Positions 1-8,789 of a stretch of 15,535 nt of DNA are shown here, piece after piece. Source of the stretch: a virus (taxonomy: Duplodnaviria; Heunggongvirae; Uroviricota; Caudoviricetes). The notes beneath the pieces are model-generated. The model did no database searches and was not told the origin of the DNA. It saw only the letters and a list, made by a program, of their open reading frames with translations. The stretch is taken from positions 1 through 15,535 of IMG/VR virus record IMGVR_UViG_2634166457_000017, one strand, 5' to 3'. Both the position numbers and the translations under genes were made by a program. Numbering within the stretch: position 1 is the stretch's first letter; every line of letters starts with the position of its first letter.

Positions 1-1227
1 GTGGCAGGCACAAACAAACTGAGTGATAAAAAATTAAGATCGCTTCTCGGCGTAAAGCGGGATTCAGTAATTACCATTGCGGATGGTGAAGGATTAAGCA
101 TCAAAGTATCCATGATGGGATGCATTAGTTGGGTTTTCTCTTATCGTCTTGGTGGGCGTGGGAGCAAGTTAGAGCGCATTGTTCTTGGGCGTTACCCTGA
201 CATGTCGTTGAAAATGGCTAGGGAGAAGAGGGAACTATGCCGAAAATGGTATGCGGACGGGCTGAATCCACGACTTGAATTAGAACTTAGCGCAGAAGAA
301 AACCTTAACCCCGTAACTGTCCATGATGCCCTTGAATATTGGCTAATTCATTACGCAAGAAAAAAACGTAGTGACGAGGAACTCGTGCGGGCGCAATTAC
401 GTAAGCATATTTATCCGCGTCTTGGCCACTATCCGTTATCCCGGTGTGAAACGCGTCACTGGGTGACATGTTTTGATGAAATTAACCAGTCCAGGCCAAT
501 CACTGCCGGGCGAATGTTCCAGATTTGTAAACAGGCCTTAAGATTCTGCAAGGTTCGCCGTTATGCCTCATGTGATGCCCTGGCTTTTATGACAATCCAG
601 GATGTAGGGCAACCATCGGGGCAGCGTGATAGGGTGCTGTCAGATAGTGAGTTAGCTGATGTATGGCGGTGTACTTATAGCGATGAACAGCAATTTTATT
701 ATCTTCGTCTGCTTAAGTTGCTTGTGCTGTTTGGGGCGCGAACAATGGAAGTAAGATTATCCCGGTGGAGTGAATGGGATTTTCAGTCATGGATTTGGAC
801 GGTTCCTAAAGAACACAGCAAAACTCGTGAAAAAATAGTTCGTCCAATTCCAGAGGGCATTCGCCCATGGATTGAGGATCTAAAAAAGGAAACGGGAAAA
901 ACAGGAATTGTACTGGGTGAAGAACGTTCCCGCCAGGCTGCTTCGCTTAAAGGGCGTAGGCTATACAAAGATTTTCATCATAATGAGCCATGGACGCTTC
1001 ACGATTTGCGCAGAACATTTTCTACAGGTTTAAATAATATGGGTATTGCGCCACATATTGTAGAGCTTTTACTTGGTCATGCATTGCCGGGGGTGATGGC
1101 TATTTATAACCGTAGTCTGTACTTACCTGAGAAAATGGATGCGTTGAATAAGTGGTATGGCCGATTAGAACTTCTGGCTGGTAATCATCAAAATGTGGTG
1201 CTGTTACCTGTATCGAATAGAGGTTAA
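1..1227 (+). CDS. int: Tyrosine recombinase / phage integrase (P4-like, arm-binding N-terminus)
   Basis: 408-aa ORF; C-terminal catalytic region shows the R..HxxR..Y pattern (WTLHDLRRTFST, LLGHA, AIYNRSLY). N-terminus resembles P4-family integrase arm domain. GTG start sits at the window edge, so the true start could lie upstream. Confidence 0.85.
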   Translation: MAGTNKLSDKKLRSLLGVKRDSVITIADGEGLSIKVSMMGCISWVFSYRLGGRGSKLERIVLGRYPDMSLKMAREKRELCRKWYADGLNPRLELELSAEENLNPVTVHDALEYWLIHYARKKRSDEELVRAQLRKHIYPRLGHYPLSRCETRHWVTCFDEINQSRPITAGRMFQICKQALRFCKVRRYASCDALAFMTIQDVGQPSGQRDRVLSDSELADVWRCTYSDEQQFYYLRLLKLLVLFGARTMEVRLSRWSEWDFQSWIWTVPKEHSKTREKIVRPIPEGIRPWIEDLKKETGKTGIVLGEERSRQAASLKGRRLYKDFHHNEPWTLHDLRRTFSTGLNNMGIAPHIVELLLGHALPGVMAIYNRSLYLPEKMDALNKWYGRLELLAGNHQNVVLLPVSNRG

Positions 1228-1318
1228 ACTGATATTACGGGCATAGGTCGGCCAACCGAAAAGCGGGAAACCCTACCCGCCTGGCTCGTAAAGTATTTAG
1301 GGCGTTGAGGGTAGCGCA

Positions 1319-2248
1319 ATGGCTAACGACATTAAAATTCCTTTTCAGTATTGCAACATTGAGCGTGCATCAAGATTGCTGGGTTGCGAGATTAGCGATC
1401 TCGTGAATTTAGGTGTTACTAAAAAAATAGCTTTATGCCTAAATTTATTTGATGCTCGCGCTGTTTTATATATGAATACTGATAGCAAGTCTGCAACTGC
1501 TTGGTTTGATACCAGAAATGCAAAATCGACCACATCACTGATGGGGAACAATATTACTGAATACTCCAGGTTTCATCTTTTCAGATACAATTATAACGAG
1601 GAGACAGATGAAACTATACACGCGCCTTTATTCGGTCAAGACTCAGAAAACGGATGCTTTAGCTCTATTGGTAGGGCTTATGGATTGTGGCGCCTTTGGA
1701 GTGGGCTGGAAGAACTACAAAATTTTGGAGAGTATTCCCTAAGTGGTTTTGAATTAACCCCGTGTCATCCAGAAACTGATAATCCTGCCGTACAACTTTT
1801 AATGGTTGGTGAAGATAGTGATTATGATGAAGAAGACGATCAAATATTAAAGAATAATATTTCTATAAATGACTTGTGGATTACCGCTCATGATATAAGG
1901 CGACTTCTTGACTGTGGTGGCGATTATTTTACGCTAACAGATAATTTTGAATCTGTAGAACCTCACAAGATGAATGGCAATGAAATTGTGCAACATTCTG
2001 CTGAAAGACATGCAAGAAATCGAGAGCAAATTTTAATGGTTGCTATGCGTTTTAAAGAAGAGCAACAAAATACTTTTAATGAGACCTGCAGAAAAAACGA
2101 TGGAACGATTAACTATTCTGCTTGGGCTCGTGAGTTGATCGCCAGACCTGATTGGTTCATTAATAGTGAATTGCCAATAAAAACAGAAACAAAAATAGCA
2201 GCAATTTTAAGTAATGCTCATAAGAGGCCGAGTGAAAGGTCGCAGTAA
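1319..2248 (+). CDS. Hypothetical protein, AT-rich accessory gene of unknown function
   Basis: 309-aa ORF with GAGGGT Shine-Dalgarno 6 nt upstream of ATG; visibly more AT-rich than flanking genes; no recognisable catalytic motif (no P-loop, no HNH, no DEAD); possible helix-turn-helix-like N-terminus (ERASRLLGCEISDLVNLGVTKK), acidic cluster DSDYDEEDD. Confidence 0.6.
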   Translation: MANDIKIPFQYCNIERASRLLGCEISDLVNLGVTKKIALCLNLFDARAVLYMNTDSKSATAWFDTRNAKSTTSLMGNNITEYSRFHLFRYNYNEETDETIHAPLFGQDSENGCFSSIGRAYGLWRLWSGLEELQNFGEYSLSGFELTPCHPETDNPAVQLLMVGEDSDYDEEDDQILKNNISINDLWITAHDIRRLLDCGGDYFTLTDNFESVEPHKMNGNEIVQHSAERHARNREQILMVAMRFKEEQQNTFNETCRKNDGTINYSAWARELIARPDWFINSELPIKTETKIAAILSNAHKRPSERSQ

Positions 2249-2267
2249 GCCTTACTCATATACTCCT

Positions 2268-2306
2268 AAGCATACTGATATATTTATAAGCATTATCAGT
2301 ATGTTT
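2268..2306 (+). terminator. Possible intrinsic terminator after accessory ORF
   Basis: Perfect 10-bp inverted repeat CATACTGATA (2271-2280) / TATCAGTATG (2294-2303) followed by TTT; loop is long (13 nt), so weak call. Confidence 0.3.
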
Positions 2307-2385
2307 CTATGATTACTACTGTGTTTTAATCCAGTATTAAAGATTGCAAAATAGCCTCCGCAATCATAGATACAGTGGAGGCAAT

Positions 2386-2670
2386 ATGACAAAAACCACA
2401 TTCATTCCCCCAACTCCAGAACAACGCCGGGCGCTTCTTGAAGAATACGGTTTTGAATTTGATCGCCGTATCCGTGAAAAGGAATGCCAGGAAATCACCA
2501 GTCTGTCGCGCTCAACTCGCTTCAAAATGGAAAATGAAGGGCGTTTCCCGCCTCGTTGTCATTTCGGGCGCAATAGCTGTGCGTGGCTTCTCTCTGATGT
2601 GCTTTGGTGGGTTCGTAACCCACCTGCTGTAGATAAAGTCAATAATCCGTACGGTAAGAAAGCTGCATAA
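2386..2670 (+). CDS. alpA: AlpA-family transcriptional regulator / excisionase-like DNA-binding protein
   Basis: Translation contains ITSLSRSTRFKMENEGRFP...WLLSDVLWWV, matching the AlpA winged-helix signature. Start placed at ATG 2386 (GGAGG 4 nt upstream) rather than the ORF-track start at 2344. Confidence 0.75.
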   Translation: MTKTTFIPPTPEQRRALLEEYGFEFDRRIREKECQEITSLSRSTRFKMENEGRFPPRCHFGRNSCAWLLSDVLWWVRNPPAVDKVNNPYGKKAA

Positions 2671-2850
2671 GGGGGGAGTTATGACACATAAAACAAAGGC
2701 GACCGGGGGCGGTCGCCAATGGGAAAACACTAAACATAAGCCCGAACATCATAGCGGTTTGCTGACTGGTGGGCAATCTGTCAGGTTTGCACCAATGACT
2801 CCAGGTTTAACCGAGGGTCATTATGGTGAATATGCTGACTTGCTGGTGGG

Positions 2851-3048
2851 CTATTCCTGCTCTTTAACATCGCCATTCTGCGATGTTTTCCAGGTATGCG
2901 ATCCCATTTTTGTGCGCCTGTACTCTTTAAGGAACTTCTCAAGGACAAACGCACATGGCGCAAATCTTTCCTGTTCTTGTTCGCTTACCGCATTTTTGCG
3001 TTGTTTTTTCCTGGATGAAGATAATTTCTTTAATGATTTGTCAGTCAT
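2851..3048 (-). CDS. Small basic hypothetical protein (uncertain)
   Basis: 65-aa minus-strand ORF in the same frame as the downstream RHH gene; weak SD; lysine/arginine-rich N-terminus. Could be a shadow ORF. Confidence 0.25.
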   Translation of the reverse strand: MTDKSLKKLSSSRKKQRKNAVSEQEQERFAPCAFVLEKFLKEYRRTKMGSHTWKTSQNGDVKEQE

Positions 3049-3300
3049 CGTAGATACCTGTAACCCTGTGCGCCACAGTTCACCGCACCACGGCGCTGGT
3101 GATGGTTACTCCTGCTCTTTGGCCTTGCGGCGCTTTAGTTCTGCTGGAGCTAATCAATCATTGTATATTAGACGTGGGATCTTTTTTTCATCGCTCCTGC
3201 ATATACGCTCATTACTGACGTGTTCATTGCTGATGCAATTTCCTAGGAGGAAAACATATAAAAACAGGGAGCCAAACCAGTATATTTTTTGCTGCATGAG

Positions 3301-3486
3301 TTATTCCTTATCAGCCTCTTTGTTTTTTTTACGCTGGCGGCGTTTGATTTCGCCGCGCATGGCAGTAACGATAAATTGCGCGTCTGTTTCGTTTTCTTCT
3401 TTTACCAAATTCATTTCGCTTAAAACTTCTAGAGGTACTCTAGCTGTTTTTTGTTGTGACTTGTTGTTGGTTGTACCTGTTGGCAT
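3301..3486 (-). CDS. Ribbon-helix-helix (Arc/MetJ-like) transcriptional repressor
   Basis: 61-aa ORF with strong SD (TAAGGAG, 7-nt spacer); segment RVPLEVLSEMNLVKEENETDAQFIVTAMRGEIKRR follows the beta-strand/helix/helix pattern of Arc repressor (EVL..EEN..); divergent from the early operon and adjacent to a palindromic operator. Confidence 0.6.
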   Translation of the reverse strand: MPTGTTNNKSQQKTARVPLEVLSEMNLVKEENETDAQFIVTAMRGEIKRRQRKKNKEADKE

Positions 3487-3551
3487 CTCTGTTCTCCTTA
3501 CTGTTAGGTGGTGTTCAGTATACGGAGAAAAAAAATAAAAAAAGACTTGAA

Positions 3552-3596
3552 GTGCAAGTCACCTAAAAGTAACCTAGATTTCAAGGTGACTTGCAC
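3552..3596. promoter_or_regulatory. Palindromic operator in divergent promoter region
   Basis: Perfect 13-bp inverted repeat GTGCAAGTCACCT (3552-3564) / AGGTGACTTGCAC (3584-3596) with 19-bp spacer, between the minus-strand RHH gene and the + strand early operon; candidate -35 TTGAAG at 3548-3553 overlaps the left half-site. Confidence 0.55.
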
Positions 3597-3674
3597 CAAA
3601 AAGCAACGCCCCGCACTGTTGGAGCAGTAACGGGGCATCTAACCACCAACGATAACGATAGTATCGAGGTAGCT

Positions 3675-3878
3675 ATGTTAAATCATACCACACACCCGCA
3701 AGGGCGGGATTCGCACAACCTGAATAAATATATCTGGCGTTTTATCGCTCTGAGCACGGCACAACCGCGCGTGATTACCATTGAGGCCACCAGCGAACAG
3801 GAAGCACGTCAGCAATCTCCTGATGGCTGCGTGATGGTATTCGCTGCCCGTATCCGTCAGGGGGGGAGCCATGCATGA
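3675..3878 (+). CDS. Small protein, possibly Icd-like host cell division inhibitor (P4 kil-region type)
   Basis: 67-aa ORF from ATG 3675 with GAGGT SD; pattern YIWRFIAL...EATSEQEARQ...FAARIRQG resembles small Icd-like proteins of P4-type elements as I recall them; position upstream of primase matches the P4 early operon layout. The ORF-track start at 3591 is TTG inside the operator and is unlikely. Confidence 0.4.
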   Translation: MLNHTTHPQGRDSHNLNKYIWRFIALSTAQPRVITIEATSEQEARQQSPDGCVMVFAARIRQGGSHA

Positions 3879-4098
3879 TGACCGTTATTTTAAATCAATG
3901 AGCCATGCAGAAAATGCACTGACTAACAGTGAATGCTTGCGGCAAATATTGCTTATCTGGCTTGATGGTTTAAGTGATGCGCCGGAAGATGAGCGTGAAT
4001 CTAATCTTGCTGGTGCGTTTATTTCATTACTCGATACGGTAATCGTCGAATTAAATAAAGCGATCGAAATTCACGATAAAAAAATAAACGCGGAATAA
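3871..4098 (+). CDS. Hypothetical small protein
   Basis: 75-aa ORF, GGGGGGAG SD immediately upstream, overlaps previous stop by 8 nt (translational coupling). Confidence 0.45.
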   Translation: MHDDRYFKSMSHAENALTNSECLRQILLIWLDGLSDAPEDERESNLAGAFISLLDTVIVELNKAIEIHDKKINAE

Positions 4099-4103
4099 AA
4101 ACC

Positions 4104-4391
4104 ATGAAACAGAAAATTTCTGGCTTTACTGCCAGCGGCCCCGCTCGTCCTGAATTTATGAACGGCGATATTTACCGCGATAAATATGGCGGTACGGTAA
4201 CGATTAAAGGCGTGGCAGAACGGCGCATCACCTACCGCCGTGAAGGTTATGAATATGACTGCGTGATGCCTGTTTATCAATTCCGGCGTGATTTTAAGCT
4301 GGTGGGCCATCGTAAAGCCGTAAATAAGAAACGTGCAGCAAGCTATATCCGCAAAATCCGTGAAATGCTGGTCGCAGGGGGTAAGAAATGA
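4104..4391 (+). CDS. Hypothetical small basic protein
   Basis: 95-aa ORF; stop overlaps primase start (ATGA), suggesting coupled translation. Confidence 0.5.
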   Translation: MKQKISGFTASGPARPEFMNGDIYRDKYGGTVTIKGVAERRITYRREGYEYDCVMPVYQFRRDFKLVGHRKAVNKKRAASYIRKIREMLVAGGKK

Positions 4392-6136
4392 AACTGGCAC
4401 CGAACGTAAAAAAACAACCACGCGGAATAAAACACAAAGACACAGAGGTAATTATTTTCGCGGGTAGTGATGCGTGGGCACATGCAAAACAGTGGCAGGA
4501 GCAGGACGGCCCCGCATCCGGCGATGATGTGCCGCCTGTGTGGCTTGGGCCAAATCAGCTTGCCGAACTGGATGCGCTGAAAATTGTTCCGGATGGGAAA
4601 AAACGCGTAAGGCTGTACCAGGCCGGAGAACTGGATTTAGTGGAGACCAAAAAGATTGGTCAGAAGCTGGCGGCGGCAGATATTCAGGATGCGAATTTTT
4701 ACCCCGAAGGGATGCACGGACAGAAATGTGAGAACTGGCGGCGCTATCTGAATGCTGAGCGTGAAAATATTGCCGCAGGGATTACCATGCCGGAACAGAA
4801 AAAATCACAACTTTCACAGATGGCAGACAGTGAACGGGCACAGCTTCTTGCTTCCCGCTTTGATGGTGTCTGCGTCCATGCAGAAAGTGAAATCGTTCAC
4901 GTATGGCGTGACGGGGTATGGTGTCCGGTCAGCACAATGGAGCTGAGCCGCGAAATGGTGGCGGTTTATTCAGAACACGGGGCCACGTTCAGCAAGCGTG
5001 CAATTAATAACGCCGTTGAAGCATTAAAAGTTATTGCCCAGCCAATGGGGGAGCCGTCCGGCGATTTGCTGCCGTTCGCCAATGGTGCGCTTGACCTGAG
5101 AACAGGAGAATTTTCCCCGCACCAGCCGGATAACTGGCTCACCACCCACAACGGCATTGAGTACACGCCGCCAGTACCAGGGGAGAATATCCGCGACAAC
5201 GCGCCAAACTTTTATAAATGGCTTGATCACGCTGCCGGAAAAGACCCACACAAGATGATGCGCATATGTGCCGCGCTCTACATGATTATGGCGAACCGGT
5301 ACGACTGGCAGATGTTCATTGAGGCCACCGGAGACGGCGGGAGCGGTAAGAGTACATTCACGCACATTGCCACACTACTTGCCGGAAAACCGAACACGGT
5401 GAGCGCCGAGATGACATCGCTTGATGATGCTGGTGGGCGTGCGCAGGTTGTCGGGAGCCGCCTTATCGTTCTGGCAGACCAGCCGAAATACACGGGCGAG
5501 GGCACGGGCATCAAGAAAATCACGGGCGGCGACCCCGTGGAGATTAACCCGAAATATGAAAAGCGATTCACGGCGGTAATCAGGGCGGTTGTGCTGGCAA
5601 CCAATAATAACCCGATGATATTCACCGAACGGGCCGGAGGCGTGTCACGTCGTCGGGTGATATTCCGGTTCGATAACATCGTAAGCGAGGCAGAAAAAGA
5701 CAGGGAGCTACCGGAAAAGATAGCGGCAGAAATCCCTGTCATTATCCGCCGCTTGCTGGCGAACTTTGCCGACCCTGAAAAGGCACGGGCTTTACTCATT
5801 GAACAGCGAGACGGTGATGAAGCACTGGCGATAAAGCAGCAGACGGATCCGGTTATTGAGTTTTGCCAGTTCCTTAACTTTCTGGAAGAAGCACGCGGCC
5901 TGATGATGGGCGGCGGCGGTGACTCTTCCAGGTACACGACCAGAAACAGCCTTTACCGCGTCTATCTGGCGTTTATGGCGTATGCCGGCAGGAACAAGCC
6001 GCTGAACGTGGCTGAGTTCAGCAAAGCTATGAAGCCAGCGGCGAAAGTTTACGGACATGAATATATAACGCGCAGGATTAAAGGGATTACGCAAACCAAC
6101 GTGACAACAACAGACGACTGCGACGCGTTTTTATAA
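4388..6136 (+). CDS. Phage/plasmid primase-helicase, P4 family (D5_N-like plus SF3 NTPase)
   Basis: 582-aa ORF; Walker A GDGGSGKST; GGGGG SD upstream; immediately followed by iteron array. No obvious TOPRIM EGYATA motif seen, so it may be helicase/initiator only. Confidence 0.85.
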   Translation: MKLAPNVKKQPRGIKHKDTEVIIFAGSDAWAHAKQWQEQDGPASGDDVPPVWLGPNQLAELDALKIVPDGKKRVRLYQAGELDLVETKKIGQKLAAADIQDANFYPEGMHGQKCENWRRYLNAERENIAAGITMPEQKKSQLSQMADSERAQLLASRFDGVCVHAESEIVHVWRDGVWCPVSTMELSREMVAVYSEHGATFSKRAINNAVEALKVIAQPMGEPSGDLLPFANGALDLRTGEFSPHQPDNWLTTHNGIEYTPPVPGENIRDNAPNFYKWLDHAAGKDPHKMMRICAALYMIMANRYDWQMFIEATGDGGSGKSTFTHIATLLAGKPNTVSAEMTSLDDAGGRAQVVGSRLIVLADQPKYTGEGTGIKKITGGDPVEINPKYEKRFTAVIRAVVLATNNNPMIFTERAGGVSRRRVIFRFDNIVSEAEKDRELPEKIAAEIPVIIRRLLANFADPEKARALLIEQRDGDEALAIKQQTDPVIEFCQFLNFLEEARGLMMGGGGDSSRYTTRNSLYRVYLAFMAYAGRNKPLNVAEFSKAMKPAAKVYGHEYITRRIKGITQTNVTTTDDCDAFL

Positions 6137-6144
6137 TTTTAGAC

Positions 6145-6380
6145 AAAAGCCCTCTACCCCTTCTACCTTAAGAAAATAATTGCATATATTTCATATGGAT
6201 AGGTTTGGTAGATGGCAGGTAGAAGGCACTTAAAAGCCCTCTACACCCTCTACCATAATTCAGGGCATTTGTGAGGGGGTGGTAGATGGCAGGTAGAGGG
6301 CCAAAAAAGCCATCTACCCCGCTGAAAGCCGCGCCATTACTGACCTGAAAGATGATTAGGTAGAGAGGTAGAGGAGGTGC
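6145..6380. repeat. Iteron array / putative origin of replication
   Basis: Eleven copies of hexamer TCTACC/GGTAGA in about 230 bp, organised as alternating-orientation 20-23 bp units (e.g. GGTAGATGGCAGGTAGAAGG at 6207-6226 and GGTAGATGGCAGGTAGAGGG at 6281-6300; AAAAGCCCTCTACCCCTTCTACC at 6145-6167 and AAAAGCCCTCTACACCCTCTACC at 6232-6254), with an AT-rich stretch 6170-6198; directly downstream of the initiator gene. Confidence 0.65.
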
Positions 6381-6422
6381 ACCACAACCCAAAACTTTTT
6401 AAACACGAGGGTAAAAATAAAA

Positions 6423-6680
6423 ATGCACACTACAGAAAAACTTAACAATCAGAAGAAACCACATAACCGCGCCATTGAGTTTACAGAGCACTTGCTGAGG
6501 GTGGCGATAAAAATCATCGACCGCAACGCGGGAGAAGGATACGCGAAAGCCCATCCCGAACTGGTAAGCGCATTCATGACAACGGCAGCGGCAAACTTTG
6601 CCACGCTGACAGAACGGGAGATTGCCGAAGCGGAACAGGTGACAACCATCAACGTTAAAACCGGAGAGCAGACAGCATGA
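6423..6680 (+). CDS. Hypothetical protein
   Basis: 85-aa ORF; stop overlaps the SSB start (ATGA). Confidence 0.5.
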   Translation: MHTTEKLNNQKKPHNRAIEFTEHLLRVAIKIIDRNAGEGYAKAHPELVSAFMTTAAANFATLTEREIAEAEQVTTINVKTGEQTA

Positions 6681-7102
6681 CGGCACAGATAGCGGCACAC
6701 GGGCGGCTGGTGGACGACCCACAGGTAAAACAGACCAGCAAGGGCACACCCATGACGCTGGCACGGATGGCGGTATCCGTACCGTGCCATAACGCAGACG
6801 ACGGACAGGCGACGCTATGGCTTGCCGTAACTGCCTTTGGTAAGCAGGCCGACGCGCTGGCAAAGCACCACAAAGGCGAACTGGTGAGCGTGGCGGGTAA
6901 CATGCAGGTAAGCCAGTGGACAGGCCAGAACGGCGAAACGCGGCAGGGCTGGCAGGTTATCGCAGACAGTATAATCAGTGCGCGAACCGTGCGACCAGGT
7001 GGCAGGAAAGGCCAACAAGGGCAGGCTACTGACGCACTGAACAGGGCAAAACAACAGACAGGCCAGCACGATGACCCATACGGGGATGAAATACCGTTTT
7101 AG
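6677..7102 (+). CDS. ssb: Single-stranded DNA-binding protein (SSB-like, short)
   Basis: 141-aa ORF; OB-fold-like core aligns by eye with E. coli SSB (LWLAVTAFGKQADALAKHHKGELVSVAGNMQVSQWTGQNGETRQGW); C-terminus DDPYGDEIPF resembles the SSB acidic tip DDDIPF. Confidence 0.7.
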   Translation: MTAQIAAHGRLVDDPQVKQTSKGTPMTLARMAVSVPCHNADDGQATLWLAVTAFGKQADALAKHHKGELVSVAGNMQVSQWTGQNGETRQGWQVIADSIISARTVRPGGRKGQQGQATDALNRAKQQTGQHDDPYGDEIPF

Positions 7103-7120
7103 CGATAACAGGGGAGATAC

Positions 7121-7369
7121 ATGCCAGTGACATTTGAAGAAGTTCAGCAACATAAAAAGTTTCATGGTTTTGATGATCTGGAAACCACGACAGCAAAAAA
7201 ATATCGCCGTCTGCTTTCTTCCGATGCGTTATTTGTTGTGGATCATCATGATTTTCTGCGCAGCTCACTGACCGGGGAAATTTTCGCAACCAACCGTGAG
7301 CAGGTGGAAGCGATGATCGAATATCTGTGGAAAATAAGACGCAGAATGCGGGATCCCGTGAAACAATAA
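7121..7369 (+). CDS. Hypothetical protein
   Basis: 82-aa ORF with GGGGAG SD; followed by an intrinsic terminator. Confidence 0.55.
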   Translation: MPVTFEEVQQHKKFHGFDDLETTTAKKYRRLLSSDALFVVDHHDFLRSSLTGEIFATNREQVEAMIEYLWKIRRRMRDPVKQ

Positions 7370-7378
7370 AGCGATAAA

Positions 7379-7407
7379 GGCCTGGATTTTTTCCAGGTCT
7401 TTTTTTC
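7379..7407 (+). terminator. Rho-independent terminator ending the replication module
   Basis: Stem CCTGGA (7381-7386) / TCCAGG (7392-7397) with 5-nt loop, followed by TCTTTTTTT. Confidence 0.6.
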
Positions 7408-7423
7408 AGGTTTTGTAAATTAT

Positions 7424-7453
7424 TTGTTCGTGGTTGTTCCAGGTTGTTCGGTG
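7424..7453. repeat. Three tandem 10-bp direct repeats upstream of the capsid operon (candidate activator binding sites)
   Basis: TTGTTCGTGG / TTGTTCCAGG / TTGTTCGGTG at 7424-7433, 7434-7443, 7444-7453, just upstream of a TTTACA (7467-7472) -35-like hexamer. Confidence 0.5.
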
Positions 7454-7643
7454 ATTCTGGCTGATGTTTACATACTGATTTTTATGTATATCTTGAAGAG
7501 TGGCACTCAGACGTGAGCCGCCACAATGCCGCCTGACCCCCTGCGCGATGCCGGGTTGATCTGCGAGATGTCGAGAGTGTCGGGCGGCGCTCCCTCCGTG
7601 TTGGTTTCACGTCCTGAATCTTAACCAATACGAGAAAACCTTC

Positions 7644-8789
7644 ATGAAGAAATTAATCGAACTCCGCCAGCAAAAAACCGCCCTGAAAAACCAGATGCGC
7701 TCCCTGCTGGAAAAAGCAGACAGTGAAAACCGCAGCCTGAACGATGACGAGGGCAAACAGTTTGATGAACTGCGTGCAAAAGCTGATTCCCTCGACACAG
7801 AAATCTCCCGTCTTGAAGCTGTTGCGGATGAAGAACGTAACCAGCCAGGTGTTTCCGTCGAAGAGAAAATCACCAAAGACGAATTGCGCTCTTATATTCT
7901 GACCGGGGAAACCCGCAACCTGTCCGGCAGTGTCCCGGCTGATGGTGGTTATACGGTTATCCCGGAACTGAACAGAGAAATTATGCGTCAGCTTTCTGAT
8001 GAATCGGTGATGCGTAAAATCTGTACCGTTAAAACCATTCACAGCAATGAATTTAAGCAACTGGTTTCTACCGGGGGGGCGGTCGTTGAACACGGCGAAG
8101 AAGGTGCGGCACGTAACCAGACGGCAACACCAAAACTGAATGAAGTCAGTATCCGCCTGTATCCGATTTACGCTTACCCGAAAACCACTCAGGAAATTAT
8201 CGATTTTTCCGAAGTCGATATTATGAGCTGGTTATCTTCTGAAATTGGCGACACTTTCGTTGATACCGAAGAAACGGATCTGGTTTCCGGTGACGGCGAG
8301 AAAAAAGCTAAAGGCTTCCTGGCTTTCCCGCGCACTGCGGACAATGACAAAACCCGTCCTTTCGGTACGCTCCAGACGAAAAAAGTTACTGGCAGTCTCA
8401 GCGCCGACATGCTGATTGACCTGAAATTTACGCTACGCAATAAGTACCGCAAAAAAGCTGTATGGGTGATGAACTCAAATACAGCCGCCTCCGCACAAAA
8501 ACTGAAAAATGCCACTGGTGATTACATCTGGCGCGATCGTTTACAGGCTGGTGATCCTGATTCTCTGCTGGGGCTTCCGGTTGAATATCTGGAATTTATG
8601 CCGGACGGTGTGATTGCAGTAGGTGACTTTAAGCGCGGTTATTTCATCGTTGACCATGAAACCGGTACGCGAACCCGTCCGGACTTCAGCGAACCCGGAT
8701 TCATTAACATCTATACCCAGAAATATCTGGGCGGTGGTGTGGTGGATTCGAACGCCATCAAGATTCTGGAAATTCAGGCTGGCAAGTAA
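7644..8789 (+). CDS. Major capsid protein, HK97 family (with N-terminal delta/scaffold-like coiled coil)
   Basis: 381-aa ORF; N-terminal charged coiled-coil segment typical of the HK97 gp5 delta domain; gene context capsid-protease-portal. Confidence 0.85.
   Translation: MKKLIELRQQKTALKNQMRSLLEKADSENRSLNDDEGKQFDELRAKADSLDTEISRLEAVADEERNQPGVSVEEKITKDELRSYILTGETRNLSGSVPADGGYTVIPELNREIMRQLSDESVMRKICTVKTIHSNEFKQLVSTGGAVVEHGEEGAARNQTATPKLNEVSIRLYPIYAYPKTTQEIIDFSEVDIMSWLSSEIGDTFVDTEETDLVSGDGEKKAKGFLAFPRTADNDKTRPFGTLQTKKVTGSLSADMLIDLKFTLRNKYRKKAVWVMNSNTAASAQKLKNATGDYIWRDRLQAGDPDSLLGLPVEYLEFMPDGVIAVGDFKRGYFIVDHETGTRTRPDFSEPGFINIYTQKYLGGGVVDSNAIKILEIQAGK

What the first reader, a model, noticed from the sequence alone, without database searches (positions are those of the whole stretch)
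1319..2248. AT-rich unknown 309-aa gene between integrase and alpA: candidate cargo (defence) or helper-sensing regulator
The ORF is markedly AT-rich compared with the rest of the island, has its own SD and a downstream hairpin, and I cannot recognise any family or catalytic motif in its translation. It sits directly beside int, a position where satellites and islands are known to carry variable cargo such as anti-phage genes. Alternatively, its possible HTH-like N-terminus could make it a master repressor of the island (Stl-like). It is the least explained large ORF in the window.
Basis: partly seen in the sequence, partly recalled or inferred. Interest (0 to 1): 0.7.

Follow-up and report, generated by a model that had tools for sequence, protein, structure and literature searches.

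The report
Swappable integrase-coupled gene in phage satellite
The AT-rich 309-aa gene is real and belongs to a large, unnamed protein family that always sits just after the integrase of phage-satellite islands; it is exchanged between islands as a cassette together with short DNA repeats in front of the master activator gene alpA, so it more likely belongs to the island's helper-phage induction/excision switch than to ordinary cargo.

Summary
ORF 1319-2248(+) is a real gene under purifying selection (dN/dS 0.08). It is AT-rich (37.6% GC against 50.6% for the island) and matches nothing in Pfam, NCBIfam, PADLOC or the PDB.

The window is a capsid-forming PICI between gcd and hpt. A profile search finds 336 cluster representatives of about 260-350 aa. 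In the 25 distinct relatives' loci with upstream sequence, the gene lies directly after a P4-type integrase on the same strand, with a gap of -4 to +97 nt. AlpA was detected downstream in all but two.

It is the hypervariable gene between conserved neighbours, for example Int 92%, AlpA 91%, X 20%. DNA similarity breaks at its start codon and resumes just before alpA. The exchanged unit is therefore the gene plus a control region with its own phased repeats (here TACTSATAT, three copies).

The int-X spacer is the Rfam 'int-alpA' RNA motif.

The closest described thing is the int-overlapping or int-contiguous gene (iolg/icg) of Vibrio PICMI satellites. Its function is unknown, but it was reported as needed for excision.

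Best reading (about 0.35): a variable component of the switch that gates alpA and excision. Defence cargo, an excision-complex partner and an Stl-like repressor all remain possible.

The parts
1..1227 (+). P4-type tyrosine integrase (int), the left end of the island. The upstream partner to which X-family genes are always coupled.
   Evidence: ORF. Annotated as tyrosine recombinase in L001. Orthologues carry Arm-DNA-bind_3 and Phage_integrase.
1236..1302 (+). Rfam RF02996 'int-alpA RNA' motif, filling the int-X spacer. It stays with int when the X cassette is swapped.
   Evidence: 55.2 bits against a gathering score of 35.8, E=1.3e-9. The same motif sits in the 91-97 nt int-X spacer of L002, L006, L007, L018, L035, L036, L038 and L042. 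It is absent from the X-less L016 and L017.
1319..2248 (+). Gene X, 309 aa (the finding): an int-contiguous gene of an uncharacterised superfamily.
1319..1474 (+). X residues 1-52: the constant N-terminal domain with a winged-HTH-like fold. It is the signature shared by all family members, including those that differ elsewhere.
   Evidence: AlphaFold2 secondary structure. Alignments A1, A2 and A3. The N-terminus alone matches L007 and L028. Weak MerR/Xis-type structural matches.
1475..1813 (+). X residues 53-165: beta-rich, acidic middle domain with the conserved G-L-W motif. It is the most variable part across the family.
1814..1852 (+). X residues 166-178: disordered acidic linker (DSDYDEEDDQ).
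   Evidence: pLDDT below 50; net charge -6.
1853..1990 (+). X residues 179-224: the conserved 'DLWIT..D..RL' strand-helix, followed by a disordered stretch.
1991..2245 (+). X residues 225-309: basic four-helix C-terminal domain (HSAERHAxNRE...), the best-conserved part among close relatives. Some variants (L007/L036, L028, L030, L041, L042) have a different sequence here.
   Evidence: Invariant R230 H231 N234 R235 E236 and others. pI 9.4..
2253..2301 (.). Cassette-specific repeat array TACTSATAT: copies at 2253-2261(+), 2273-2281(+) and 2293-2301(-), about 20 bp apart.
   Evidence: five 8-mer copies; 2 of 300 shuffles reach this; the two exact copies in the window lie here; with the one-mismatch copy, 3 of the 8 one-mismatch matches fall within 50 bp.
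2249..2369 (+). The non-coding part of the swapped cassette: the X-alpA control region. It co-varies with X and not with alpA.
   Evidence: blastn similarity between islands stops at the X start codon and resumes at 2350-2370, 16-36 nt before the alpA ATG.
2354..2382 (+). Stem-loop in the alpA leader whose 3' arm contains the alpA Shine-Dalgarno sequence (GGAGG, 2377-2381).
   Evidence: -15.0 kcal/mol, z -4.05, 0 of 200 shuffles. Different sequences form equivalent hairpins in L002 and L006, and more weakly in L007.
2386..2670 (+). alpA, the long 94-aa variant: the master activator/excisionase-type gene and the downstream partner of the slot.
   Evidence: Annotated in L001. Phage_AlpA in orthologues. 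Sequences.

Best explanation
X is the variable protein component of the island's induction/excision switch. It is an 'int-contiguous gene' of the same positional class as the iolg/icg genes of PICMI satellites.

Shown here:
- X is a conserved, selected gene that lies immediately after int, behind the int-alpA RNA motif.
- Across islands it is replaced as a unit together with the region in front of alpA.
- Each cassette type carries its own 3-5 repeats of 8-10 bp.

Inferred:
- X is made in the integrated state along with Int.
- It acts on the repeats that travel with it, either directly or with a partner.
- It licenses helper-phage-dependent expression of alpA, whose product then drives excision and the island cycle.
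- The constant N-terminal domain faces the island, and the variable body sets which cue or helper is recognised.

I lean to a positive (required) role rather than a repressor role. The only support for that sign is the PICMI115 iolg mutant, which lost excision.
For: 1. Fixed synteny despite deep divergence. Counting distinct loci with upstream sequence (one search list plus L033, L035-L038, L041, L042), 25 of 25 X-family genes lie directly downstream of a tyrosine integrase on the same strand. Gaps run from -4 nt (ATGA overlap in L015, L028, L030) to 97 nt. AlpA was detected downstream in all but L014 and L015. The islands differ in type: cf-PICI, a P4-like island with Ogr/Delta (L033), and a BREX-carrying island (L014).

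2. Hypervariable between conserved neighbours. Over 55 locus pairs, mean identity is Int 57%, X 31%, AlpA 61%. X is lower than both neighbours in 48 of 55 pairs. Int and AlpA identities correlate (rho 0.53, p=4e-5). X correlates with neither.

3. Sharp cassette boundaries. Similarity ends at the X start codon and resumes 1-36 nt before the alpA ATG, in 8 island pairs.

4. Cassette-specific phased repeats just after X. They exceed shuffles in 7 of 9 cassette types. Examples: L002 and L033 0/300, the window 2/300, L018 2/300, L035 3/300.

5. Conservation where expected. Islands with the same X type but different Int keep the same repeats: window against L008, Int 58% and X 91%.

6. Literature. 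In PICMI115, a gene of unknown function that overlaps int by ATGA and precedes alpA is needed, with int and alpA, for helper-induced excision. Thirteen such iolg/icg families exist (PMC10803314). How helpers switch on alpA in Gram-negative PICIs is stated to be unknown (PMC6092414).

7. Purifying selection within a type: dN/dS 0.083.
Against: - No DNA binding is shown. The putative recognition helix has a mean net charge of -1.7 across the family and is never positive. The whole protein has pI 4.95.
- Neither N-terminal nor C-terminal domain similarity predicts the repeat type.
- The repeats could be terminators or binding sites for another factor, for example a helper protein. In L002 and L006 they fold as strong hairpins.
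- Two closely related cf-PICIs (L016, L017) have no slot gene at all. X is therefore not a general requirement.
- Only 12 of 5426 complete E. coli genomes carry this X type.
- Unrelated proteins also occupy the slot: DUF6387 in L040 and L029, and a 216-aa protein in L039.
- Homology to the one tested gene, PICMI115 IOLGd, could not be checked.
- That mutant was complemented with int and iolg together, so an effect through int is not excluded.
Confidence: 0.35

Rival explanations
1. Anti-phage defence or superinfection-exclusion cargo. X is a single-gene immune or exclusion determinant carried in the 5' accessory region of the satellite, expressed in the integrated state, and diversified by an arms race with phages.
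For: - PICIs are reported to carry immune systems at their 5' or 3' ends (PMC11364771).
- The slot is variable and holds unrelated families.
- X is AT-rich, like recently acquired cargo, and rare in E. coli.
- Near-identical backbones lack it.
- X is acidic and matches no known regulator family.
Against: - No PADLOC hit for X, and no consistent or convincing hit among 40 relatives.
- No enzymatic or membrane effector motif. The C-terminus is an 85-aa basic helical domain.
- The occupant is always one gene, always co-oriented with int and abutting or overlapping it. X-family members were never seen away from int in 25 distinct loci.
- The family also sits in a small int-X-alpA-primase element of about 9.8 kb (L028).
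- The swapped unit includes the alpA control region with its own repeats, which a cargo cassette would not need.
Confidence: 0.2
2. Structural partner in the excision complex, as the PICMI authors propose for IOLG. X is co-produced with Int and joins Int and AlpA at the att sites as an accessory or directionality co-factor. It has no role in transcription.
For: - Translational coupling or overlap with int in relatives.
- The PICMI115 iolg mutant does not excise, and the authors propose a three-protein excision complex (PMC10803314).
- The N-terminal fold resembles excisionase/MerR-type domains.
- The long AlpA variant, with N- and C-terminal extensions, was found only in islands that also have a slot gene. 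The two X-less cf-PICIs examined carry a short AlpA, although some islands with a slot gene also have shorter AlpA forms (75 aa in L033, at most 79 aa in L030).
Against: - X does not co-evolve with Int or AlpA. It is exchanged between Int proteins 92-98% identical and AlpA proteins 81-91% identical while dropping to 20-21% identity itself.
- The X-linked repeats sit about 1 kb past the end of int, next to alpA. They are not near the island ends where attP arms lie, and the motif does not recur there.
- An architectural protein would be expected to be basic. X has a net charge of -16.
Confidence: 0.15
3. Stl-like master repressor. X binds the repeats and keeps alpA off, or blocks read-through from int, until a helper-phage protein binds its variable body and releases it.
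For: - The anatomy resembles a phage or SaPI immunity module: a hypervariable protein next to int, swapped together with its own repeat array in front of the master activator.
- A constant N-terminal HTH-like domain is joined to a variable body.
Against: - X is co-directional with alpA rather than divergent.
- The recognition helix is acidic.
- Loss of the positionally equivalent gene in PICMI115 abolished excision rather than causing constitutive excision.
- X-less PICIs stay silent without such a protein.
- P4-type C4/isrK immunity RNAs are present in related islands (L041, L042, L006).
Confidence: 0.15

Closest known systems
iolg / icg (integrase-overlapping / integrase-contiguous genes) of Vibrio PICMI satellites (Barcia-Cruz et al. 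2024, PMC10803314)
   Same: - One gene of unknown function lies between int and alpA on the same strand.
- It overlaps int by ATGA or is contiguous with it. X is contiguous, and its relatives in L015, L028 and L030 overlap by 4 nt.
- There are many divergent families.
- Relatives sit in fis-integrating elements with the same direct repeat, AATACGGCATGAACTAA (L028, L030).
   Different: - X sits in a capsid-forming PICI of Enterobacterales, not a 5-6 kb minimal satellite.
- X is separated from int by the int-alpA RNA motif.
- Sequence homology to the tested IOLGd of PICMI115 was not established.
- The cassette and repeat structure described here is not in that paper.
Stl / Rpr master repressors of Gram-positive PICIs (SaPIs)
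   Same: - Both lie adjacent to int.
- Both are highly divergent between otherwise similar islands.
- Both have a modular layout: a constant N-terminal HTH-type domain and a variable body.
- Both lie next to the control region of the island's early genes.
   Different: - Stl is transcribed divergently from the genes it represses, has a Cro/C1-type HTH, and its loss induces the island.
- X is co-directional and has an acidic winged-HTH-like domain.
- The only mutant in its positional class lost induction.
Rfam RF02996 int-alpA RNA motif
   Same: It matches window 1236-1302 above the gathering score. It lies where Rfam's name implies, between int and alpA.
   Different: In every locus examined here the motif lies directly upstream of an X-family gene, not of alpA. 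It was absent from the two X-less int-alpA islands checked. Its function is unknown.
PHROG 7144
   Same: Full-length profile match (residues 3-301 to profile positions 4-311 of 313), E=3.5e-36.
   Different: The family has no annotated function, so the match only shows that relatives were already seen in (pro)phage records.
DUF6387 (PF19924)
   Same: It occupies the same slot, overlapping int by 4 nt and preceding a long alpA (L040, and L029 in part).
   Different: No detectable sequence similarity to X (X-family HMM E=0.13-0.2). It is likewise uncharacterised.

Membership tests
iolg/icg class of satellite genes (PMC10803314) | Lies between int and alpA, on the same strand as both | tested here: met
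   int 1-1227, X 1319-2248, alpA 2386-2670, all on the + strand.
iolg/icg class of satellite genes (PMC10803314) | Overlaps int by 1-13 nt (iolg) or is contiguous with it (icg) | tested here: met
   X is contiguous: the 91-nt gap is filled by the int-alpA RNA motif. Family members in L015, L028 and L030 overlap int by 4 nt.
iolg/icg class of satellite genes (PMC10803314) | Sequence homology to one of the 13 described Vibrio iolg/icg families, in particular IOLGd of PICMI115 | not tested
   The sequences are given only as locus tags and could not be fetched. The fis-att elements that I could reach (L028, L030) are enterobacterial.
iolg/icg class of satellite genes (PMC10803314) | Required for helper-induced excision | not testable with these tools
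   Needs a deletion mutant and excision PCR or qPCR.
Stl/Rpr-type PICI master repressor | Divergently transcribed from the early operon, with operators in the shared intergenic region | tested here: not met
   X is co-directional with alpA. Repeats do lie between X and alpA.
Stl/Rpr-type PICI master repressor | N-terminal sequence-specific DNA-binding HTH | tested here: inconclusive
   The fold is winged-HTH-like. No HTH profile matches, and helix 2 is acidic.
Stl/Rpr-type PICI master repressor | Released by binding a helper-phage protein | not testable with these tools
   Needs genetics or biochemistry.
Known anti-phage defence systems (PADLOC-DB 2.0) | Profile match to a protein of a known or candidate defence system | tested here: not met
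   0 hits for X at E<=10. Among 40 relatives only two isolated weak hits, E 0.009 and 0.03.
MerR / excisionase / AlpA (HTH_17-type) winged-HTH proteins | Sequence-profile similarity | tested here: not met
   No Pfam hit. hhalign of the X N-terminus against AlpA gives probability 0.2%. A PDB profile search gives no relevant hit.
MerR / excisionase / AlpA (HTH_17-type) winged-HTH proteins | Strand-helix-helix-wing fold | tested here: inconclusive
PHROG 7144 | Full-length profile match | tested here: met
   E=3.5e-36, residues 3-301 to profile positions 4-311 of 313.
Rfam RF02996 int-alpA RNA (int-X spacer) | Covariance-model score above the gathering threshold | tested here: met
   55.2 bits against 35.8, full model 1-71.

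The most novel reading that the evidence does not exclude
X and its repeat array are the missing helper-sensing module of Gram-negative satellites. Under this reading X belongs to a family of modular proteins with a constant island-facing N-terminal domain and a hypervariable phage-facing body. These proteins would read a helper-phage cue and switch on alpA through cassette-specific sites, and whole cassettes would be exchanged between islands to change helper specificity. That would explain both how helpers induce alpA and what iolg-type genes do.
Probability: 0.25. Interest if true: 0.8.

Novelty: new variant of a known kind. Interest (0 to 1): 0.55.

Why it matters
How helper phages switch on alpA, and so excision and spread, in Gram-negative phage satellites is an acknowledged open question (PMC6092414, PMC10803314). 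So is the role of the gene found after int in PICMIs.

This locus offers a concrete candidate that can be tested genetically:
- a widespread but unnamed protein family tied to the integrase;
- exchange of that gene as a cassette together with its own DNA repeats in front of alpA;
- a known but unexplained RNA motif (RF02996) that precedes it.

If the family sets helper specificity, it would help predict which phages mobilise which islands. Those islands include ones that carry virulence, resistance or defence genes. It would also give a handle for engineering satellite-based delivery vehicles.

Tried and rejected
- A Pfam scan of 40 family members found no shared family.
- hhalign of the X N-terminal domain against AlpA showed no relation. 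I dropped the idea that X is a duplicated or extended AlpA.
- The search for related loci with the broad alignment failed because no block was conserved enough. With A1 it returned only 5 Xenorhabdus loci.
- I tried to predict an X-AlpA complex from a linker-fused, paired alignment.
- I tried to reach Vibrio PICMI iolg sequences through the fis att repeat in viral contigs. This gave enterobacterial elements instead: L028, L030 and the DUF6387-type L029. Direct homology to PICMI115 IOLGd therefore remains untested.
- RNAalifold on the alpA leader predicted no consensus structure because the alignment register shifts. Only single-sequence folds support that hairpin.
- A search of the X-alpA control region against phage genomes found no meaningful match. 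This gives no support for the idea that the region copies a helper promoter.
- 'Simple intrinsic terminator after X' is rejected for this window: no T-run and z -1.84.
- No simple rule links N-terminal or C-terminal domain similarity to the repeat sequence.

Full report
**What the window is.** The 15.5-kb window is a capsid-forming phage-inducible chromosomal island (cf-PICI). Its gene order is int (1-1227), the ORF in question (here 'X', 1319-2248), alpA (2386-2670), a D5-type primase, SSB, HK97-type capsid, protease, portal, connector, HNH, TerS and TerL. The host gene hpt follows. A nearly identical island lies between gcd and hpt in E. coli NZ_CP182387, where X is annotated 'hypothetical protein'. 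This layout matches the cf-PICI family described for EcCIEDL933 (10.1101/2022.09.08.507074).

**Checking the observation.**
- It is the most AT-rich gene of the island. GC is 37.6%, against 45.2% for int and 50.6% for the rest. GC3 is 30% against 50-61%.
- Pfam, NCBIfam and PADLOC give nothing at E<=10. PHROG 7144 ('unknown function') matches over the full length.
- It is a real gene. Against the 89%-identical copy in L008, dN/dS is 0.083, and it is low in all four segments.
- The 'downstream hairpin' exists as an inverted repeat but is not a convincing terminator.
- The AlphaFold2 model has mean pLDDT 81.7. It shows, in order:
  - an N-terminal strand-helix-helix-strand unit (residues 11-52);
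  - a beta-rich middle domain;
  - a disordered acidic linker (166-177);
  - a conserved strand-helix (179-198);
  - a four-helix C-terminal domain (227-299).
- The only recurring theme is weak matches to MerR, Xis, BldC and AlpA-type winged HTH domains.
- Sequence profiles do not confirm that assignment.
- The putative recognition helix is acidic across the family. The protein has pI 4.95, and only the C-terminal domain is basic, at pI 9.4.

**The family and where it lives.**
- A word-indexed search found 21 close clusters, in Enterobacter, Photorhabdus, Arsenophonus and Morganella.
- A full profile search found 336 cluster representatives of similar length, about 260-350 aa.
- The constant feature is the N-terminal ~45 residues (P-x-x-E-Y-C-x-L-x-R-A-A-x-L-L-x-C-x-V-x-D-L-L-H-W). 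A G-L-W motif, a 'DLWIT' motif and, in many members, the C-terminal 'ERHAxNRE...' domain are also conserved.
- Some members share only the N-terminus (L007/L036, L028) or the N-terminus plus the middle domain (L030, L041, L042).
- In all 25 distinct loci with upstream sequence, the gene lies directly downstream of a P4-type integrase on the same strand. The gap runs from a 4-nt ATGA overlap to 97 nt. AlpA was detected after it in all but L014 and L015.
- The islands differ otherwise: cf-PICIs, a P4-like element with Ogr/Delta (L033) and a BREX-carrying island (L014).

**It is not universal.**
- Two close cf-PICI relatives, with backbones 89-96% identical (L016, L017), go from int to a short 62-69-aa AlpA with no gene between.
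- Only 12 of 5426 complete E. coli genomes carry this X type. 84 genomes carry the long 94-aa AlpA.
- The six islands with a long AlpA that I opened (L007, L008, L039-L042) all have a slot gene. Four hold X-superfamily variants, L040 holds DUF6387, and L039 holds an unrelated 216-aa protein.

**The key comparative result.** X is the hypervariable gene between conserved neighbours.
- Over 55 pairs of 11 loci, mean identity is Int 57%, X 31% and AlpA 61%.
- X is lower than both neighbours in 48 pairs.
- Int and AlpA identities correlate (rho 0.53, p=4e-5). X correlates with neither.
- Examples (Int/X/AlpA): L008 against L036, 92/20/91. L018 against L036, 98/21/81. L002 against L038, 85/26/89.
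- Conversely, the window against L008 gives Int 58 and X 91.

At the DNA level, similarity runs through int and the int-X spacer to the X start codon. It disappears over X and over most of the X-alpA spacer. It returns 1-36 nt before the alpA start. In one pair (L008 against L042) it runs about 96 nt into the N-terminal domain.

The exchanged unit is therefore X plus the control region in front of alpA. Each cassette type carries its own set of 3-5 copies of an 8-10-bp motif, direct and inverted, often about 20-21 bp apart. The window has TACTSATAT at 2253, 2273 and 2293(-). L002 has GGTGTTTAA four times, L033 has CAATGTCAGG three times, and L035 has AGAAAGGGTT three times. These arrays exceed shuffled controls in 7 of 9 types. 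In the window the motif clusters only here. Islands that share an X type keep the same repeats even when their integrases differ.

**The int-X spacer.** Window 1236-1302 matches Rfam RF02996, 'int-alpA RNA', at 55.2 bits against a gathering score of 35.8. The same motif fills the 91-97-nt spacer in eight other X-bearing loci. It is absent from the X-less L016 and L017 and from loci where the slot gene abuts or overlaps int. In the loci examined, then, this RNA motif precedes the X-family gene rather than alpA. It stays with int when cassettes are swapped.

**What is known.**
- Barcia-Cruz et al. (PMC10803314) described 'iolg' and 'icg' genes in Vibrio PICMI satellites. An iolg overlaps int, usually by ATGA. 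An icg is contiguous with int. Both lie before alpA.
- The authors grouped these genes into 13 families, all of unknown function.
- In PICMI115, iolg was needed together with int and alpA for helper-induced excision. The authors suggest that int and iolg are constitutive, that alpA is phage-induced, and that the three proteins form an excision complex.
- The iolg mutant was complemented with int and iolg together.
- X fits this positional class, and its relatives include int-overlapping genes in fis-integrating elements that carry the PICMI att repeat (L028, L030). Those elements are enterobacterial.
- I could not obtain Vibrio iolg sequences, so homology to the tested gene is open.
[quoted passage not shown] Whether a global repressor exists is 'unclear' (PMC6092414).
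- EcCIMP1 also has an uncharacterised gene (_002) between int (_001) and alpA (_003) (PMC11773190).
- PICIs are reported to carry immune systems at their 5' or 3' ends (PMC11364771).

**Interpretation.** Four features argue against free cargo and for a component of the int-alpA switch:
- strict coupling to int;
- a constant N-terminal domain joined to a hypervariable body;
- exchange as a unit with a repeat-bearing alpA control region;
- purifying selection within each type.

I commit to the reading that X acts through the repeats that travel with it and licenses helper-dependent alpA expression, with excision following from that (confidence about 0.35). The positive sign rests only on the PICMI mutant.

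Steps shown: synteny, variability, cassette boundaries, repeats and the RNA motif. Steps inferred: DNA binding, regulation of alpA, helper sensing and constitutive expression.

Rivals:
- a partner in the excision complex (0.15), weakened by the lack of co-evolution with Int and AlpA and by the position of the repeats;
- defence or exclusion cargo (0.2), supported by the known 5' accessory region and by the unrelated slot occupants;
- an Stl-like repressor (0.15), which fits the immunity-module anatomy but not the orientation, the charge or the PICMI phenotype.

About 0.15 is left for something else.

**Novelty and score.** The positional class was described in 2024 with unknown function. New here, to my knowledge:
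- the superfamily is defined, with a shared N-terminal domain and more than 300 clusters;
- it occurs in cf-PICIs and P4-like islands of Enterobacterales and Aeromonas;
- it behaves as a cassette with cognate repeats;
- it is linked to the RF02996 RNA motif.

I rate it a new variant of a known kind, interest 0.55.

Noticed in passing
window 1236-1302 (+): The int-X spacer is the Rfam 'int-alpA RNA' motif (RF02996, 55.2 bits). In 9 loci it lies directly upstream of an X-family gene rather than of alpA. It is missing from the two X-less int-alpA islands checked. It may be a leader or terminator that controls expression of the slot gene.
   Followed up: partly
window 2354-2382 (+): A stem-loop in the alpA leader has the alpA Shine-Dalgarno sequence (GGAGG) in its 3' arm: -15.0 kcal/mol, z -4.05. 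L002, L006 and L007 form equivalent hairpins from different sequences. This suggests translational control of alpA. RNAalifold failed on my alignment, so covariation has not been properly counted.
   Followed up: partly
window 2386-2670 versus L016 4794-5003 and L017 4887-5075: AlpA comes in a long form (93-104 aa, with the N-terminal 'PTPEQRRxLLEEYG' and C-terminal 'VRNPPxVxNVNNPY' extensions). I saw that form only in islands with a slot gene. A short form (62-69 aa) occurs in the X-less cf-PICIs. The link is not strict: L033 has a slot gene and a 75-aa AlpA. The extensions could be a contact surface for the slot protein.
   Followed up: partly
L039 2410-2979: In an E. coli fis-site island with an unrelated 216-aa int-overlapping gene, the 570-nt spacer before alpA is packed with tandem repeats: CAGCATTCAA three times, GACACGTAA twice, and (T)GTTCATC about six times. 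It looks like an iteron field, either regulatory or origin-like.
   Followed up: no
L040 2082-2884; L029 4219-4550: DUF6387 (PF19924) proteins are an alternative occupant of the same slot and overlap int by ATGA. In L040 the gene is split in two. DUF6387 appears to be another uncharacterised 'iolg' family.
   Followed up: partly
window 2681-3590: The region after alpA has no convincing gene. It holds a 285-aa low-complexity ORF on the + strand, and RefSeq relatives annotate a pseudogene here and a small YlcI/YnfO gene on the opposite strand. Related islands carry AntA or Bro-N genes here, and C4/isrK immunity RNAs occur downstream in L041, L042 and L006. No C4 or isrK match was found in window 1-7700.
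   Followed up: partly
L018 (PQ569648.1, 'Klebsiella phage P12620-1', record positions 93181-105292): A 106-kb record deposited as a phage genome carries an int-X-alpA...capsid-protease-portal segment near one end, typical of a cf-PICI. This may be a co-assembled or co-packaged satellite rather than part of the phage.
   Followed up: no
window 984-2670 versus L008 13952-15639: The block shared with the fis-site island L008 starts inside the last ~240 nt of int and ends at the alpA stop (85.7% identity), while the rest of int is only 58% identical at the protein level. The int 3' end, X and alpA can therefore move together between integrases with different site specificity.
   Followed up: partly
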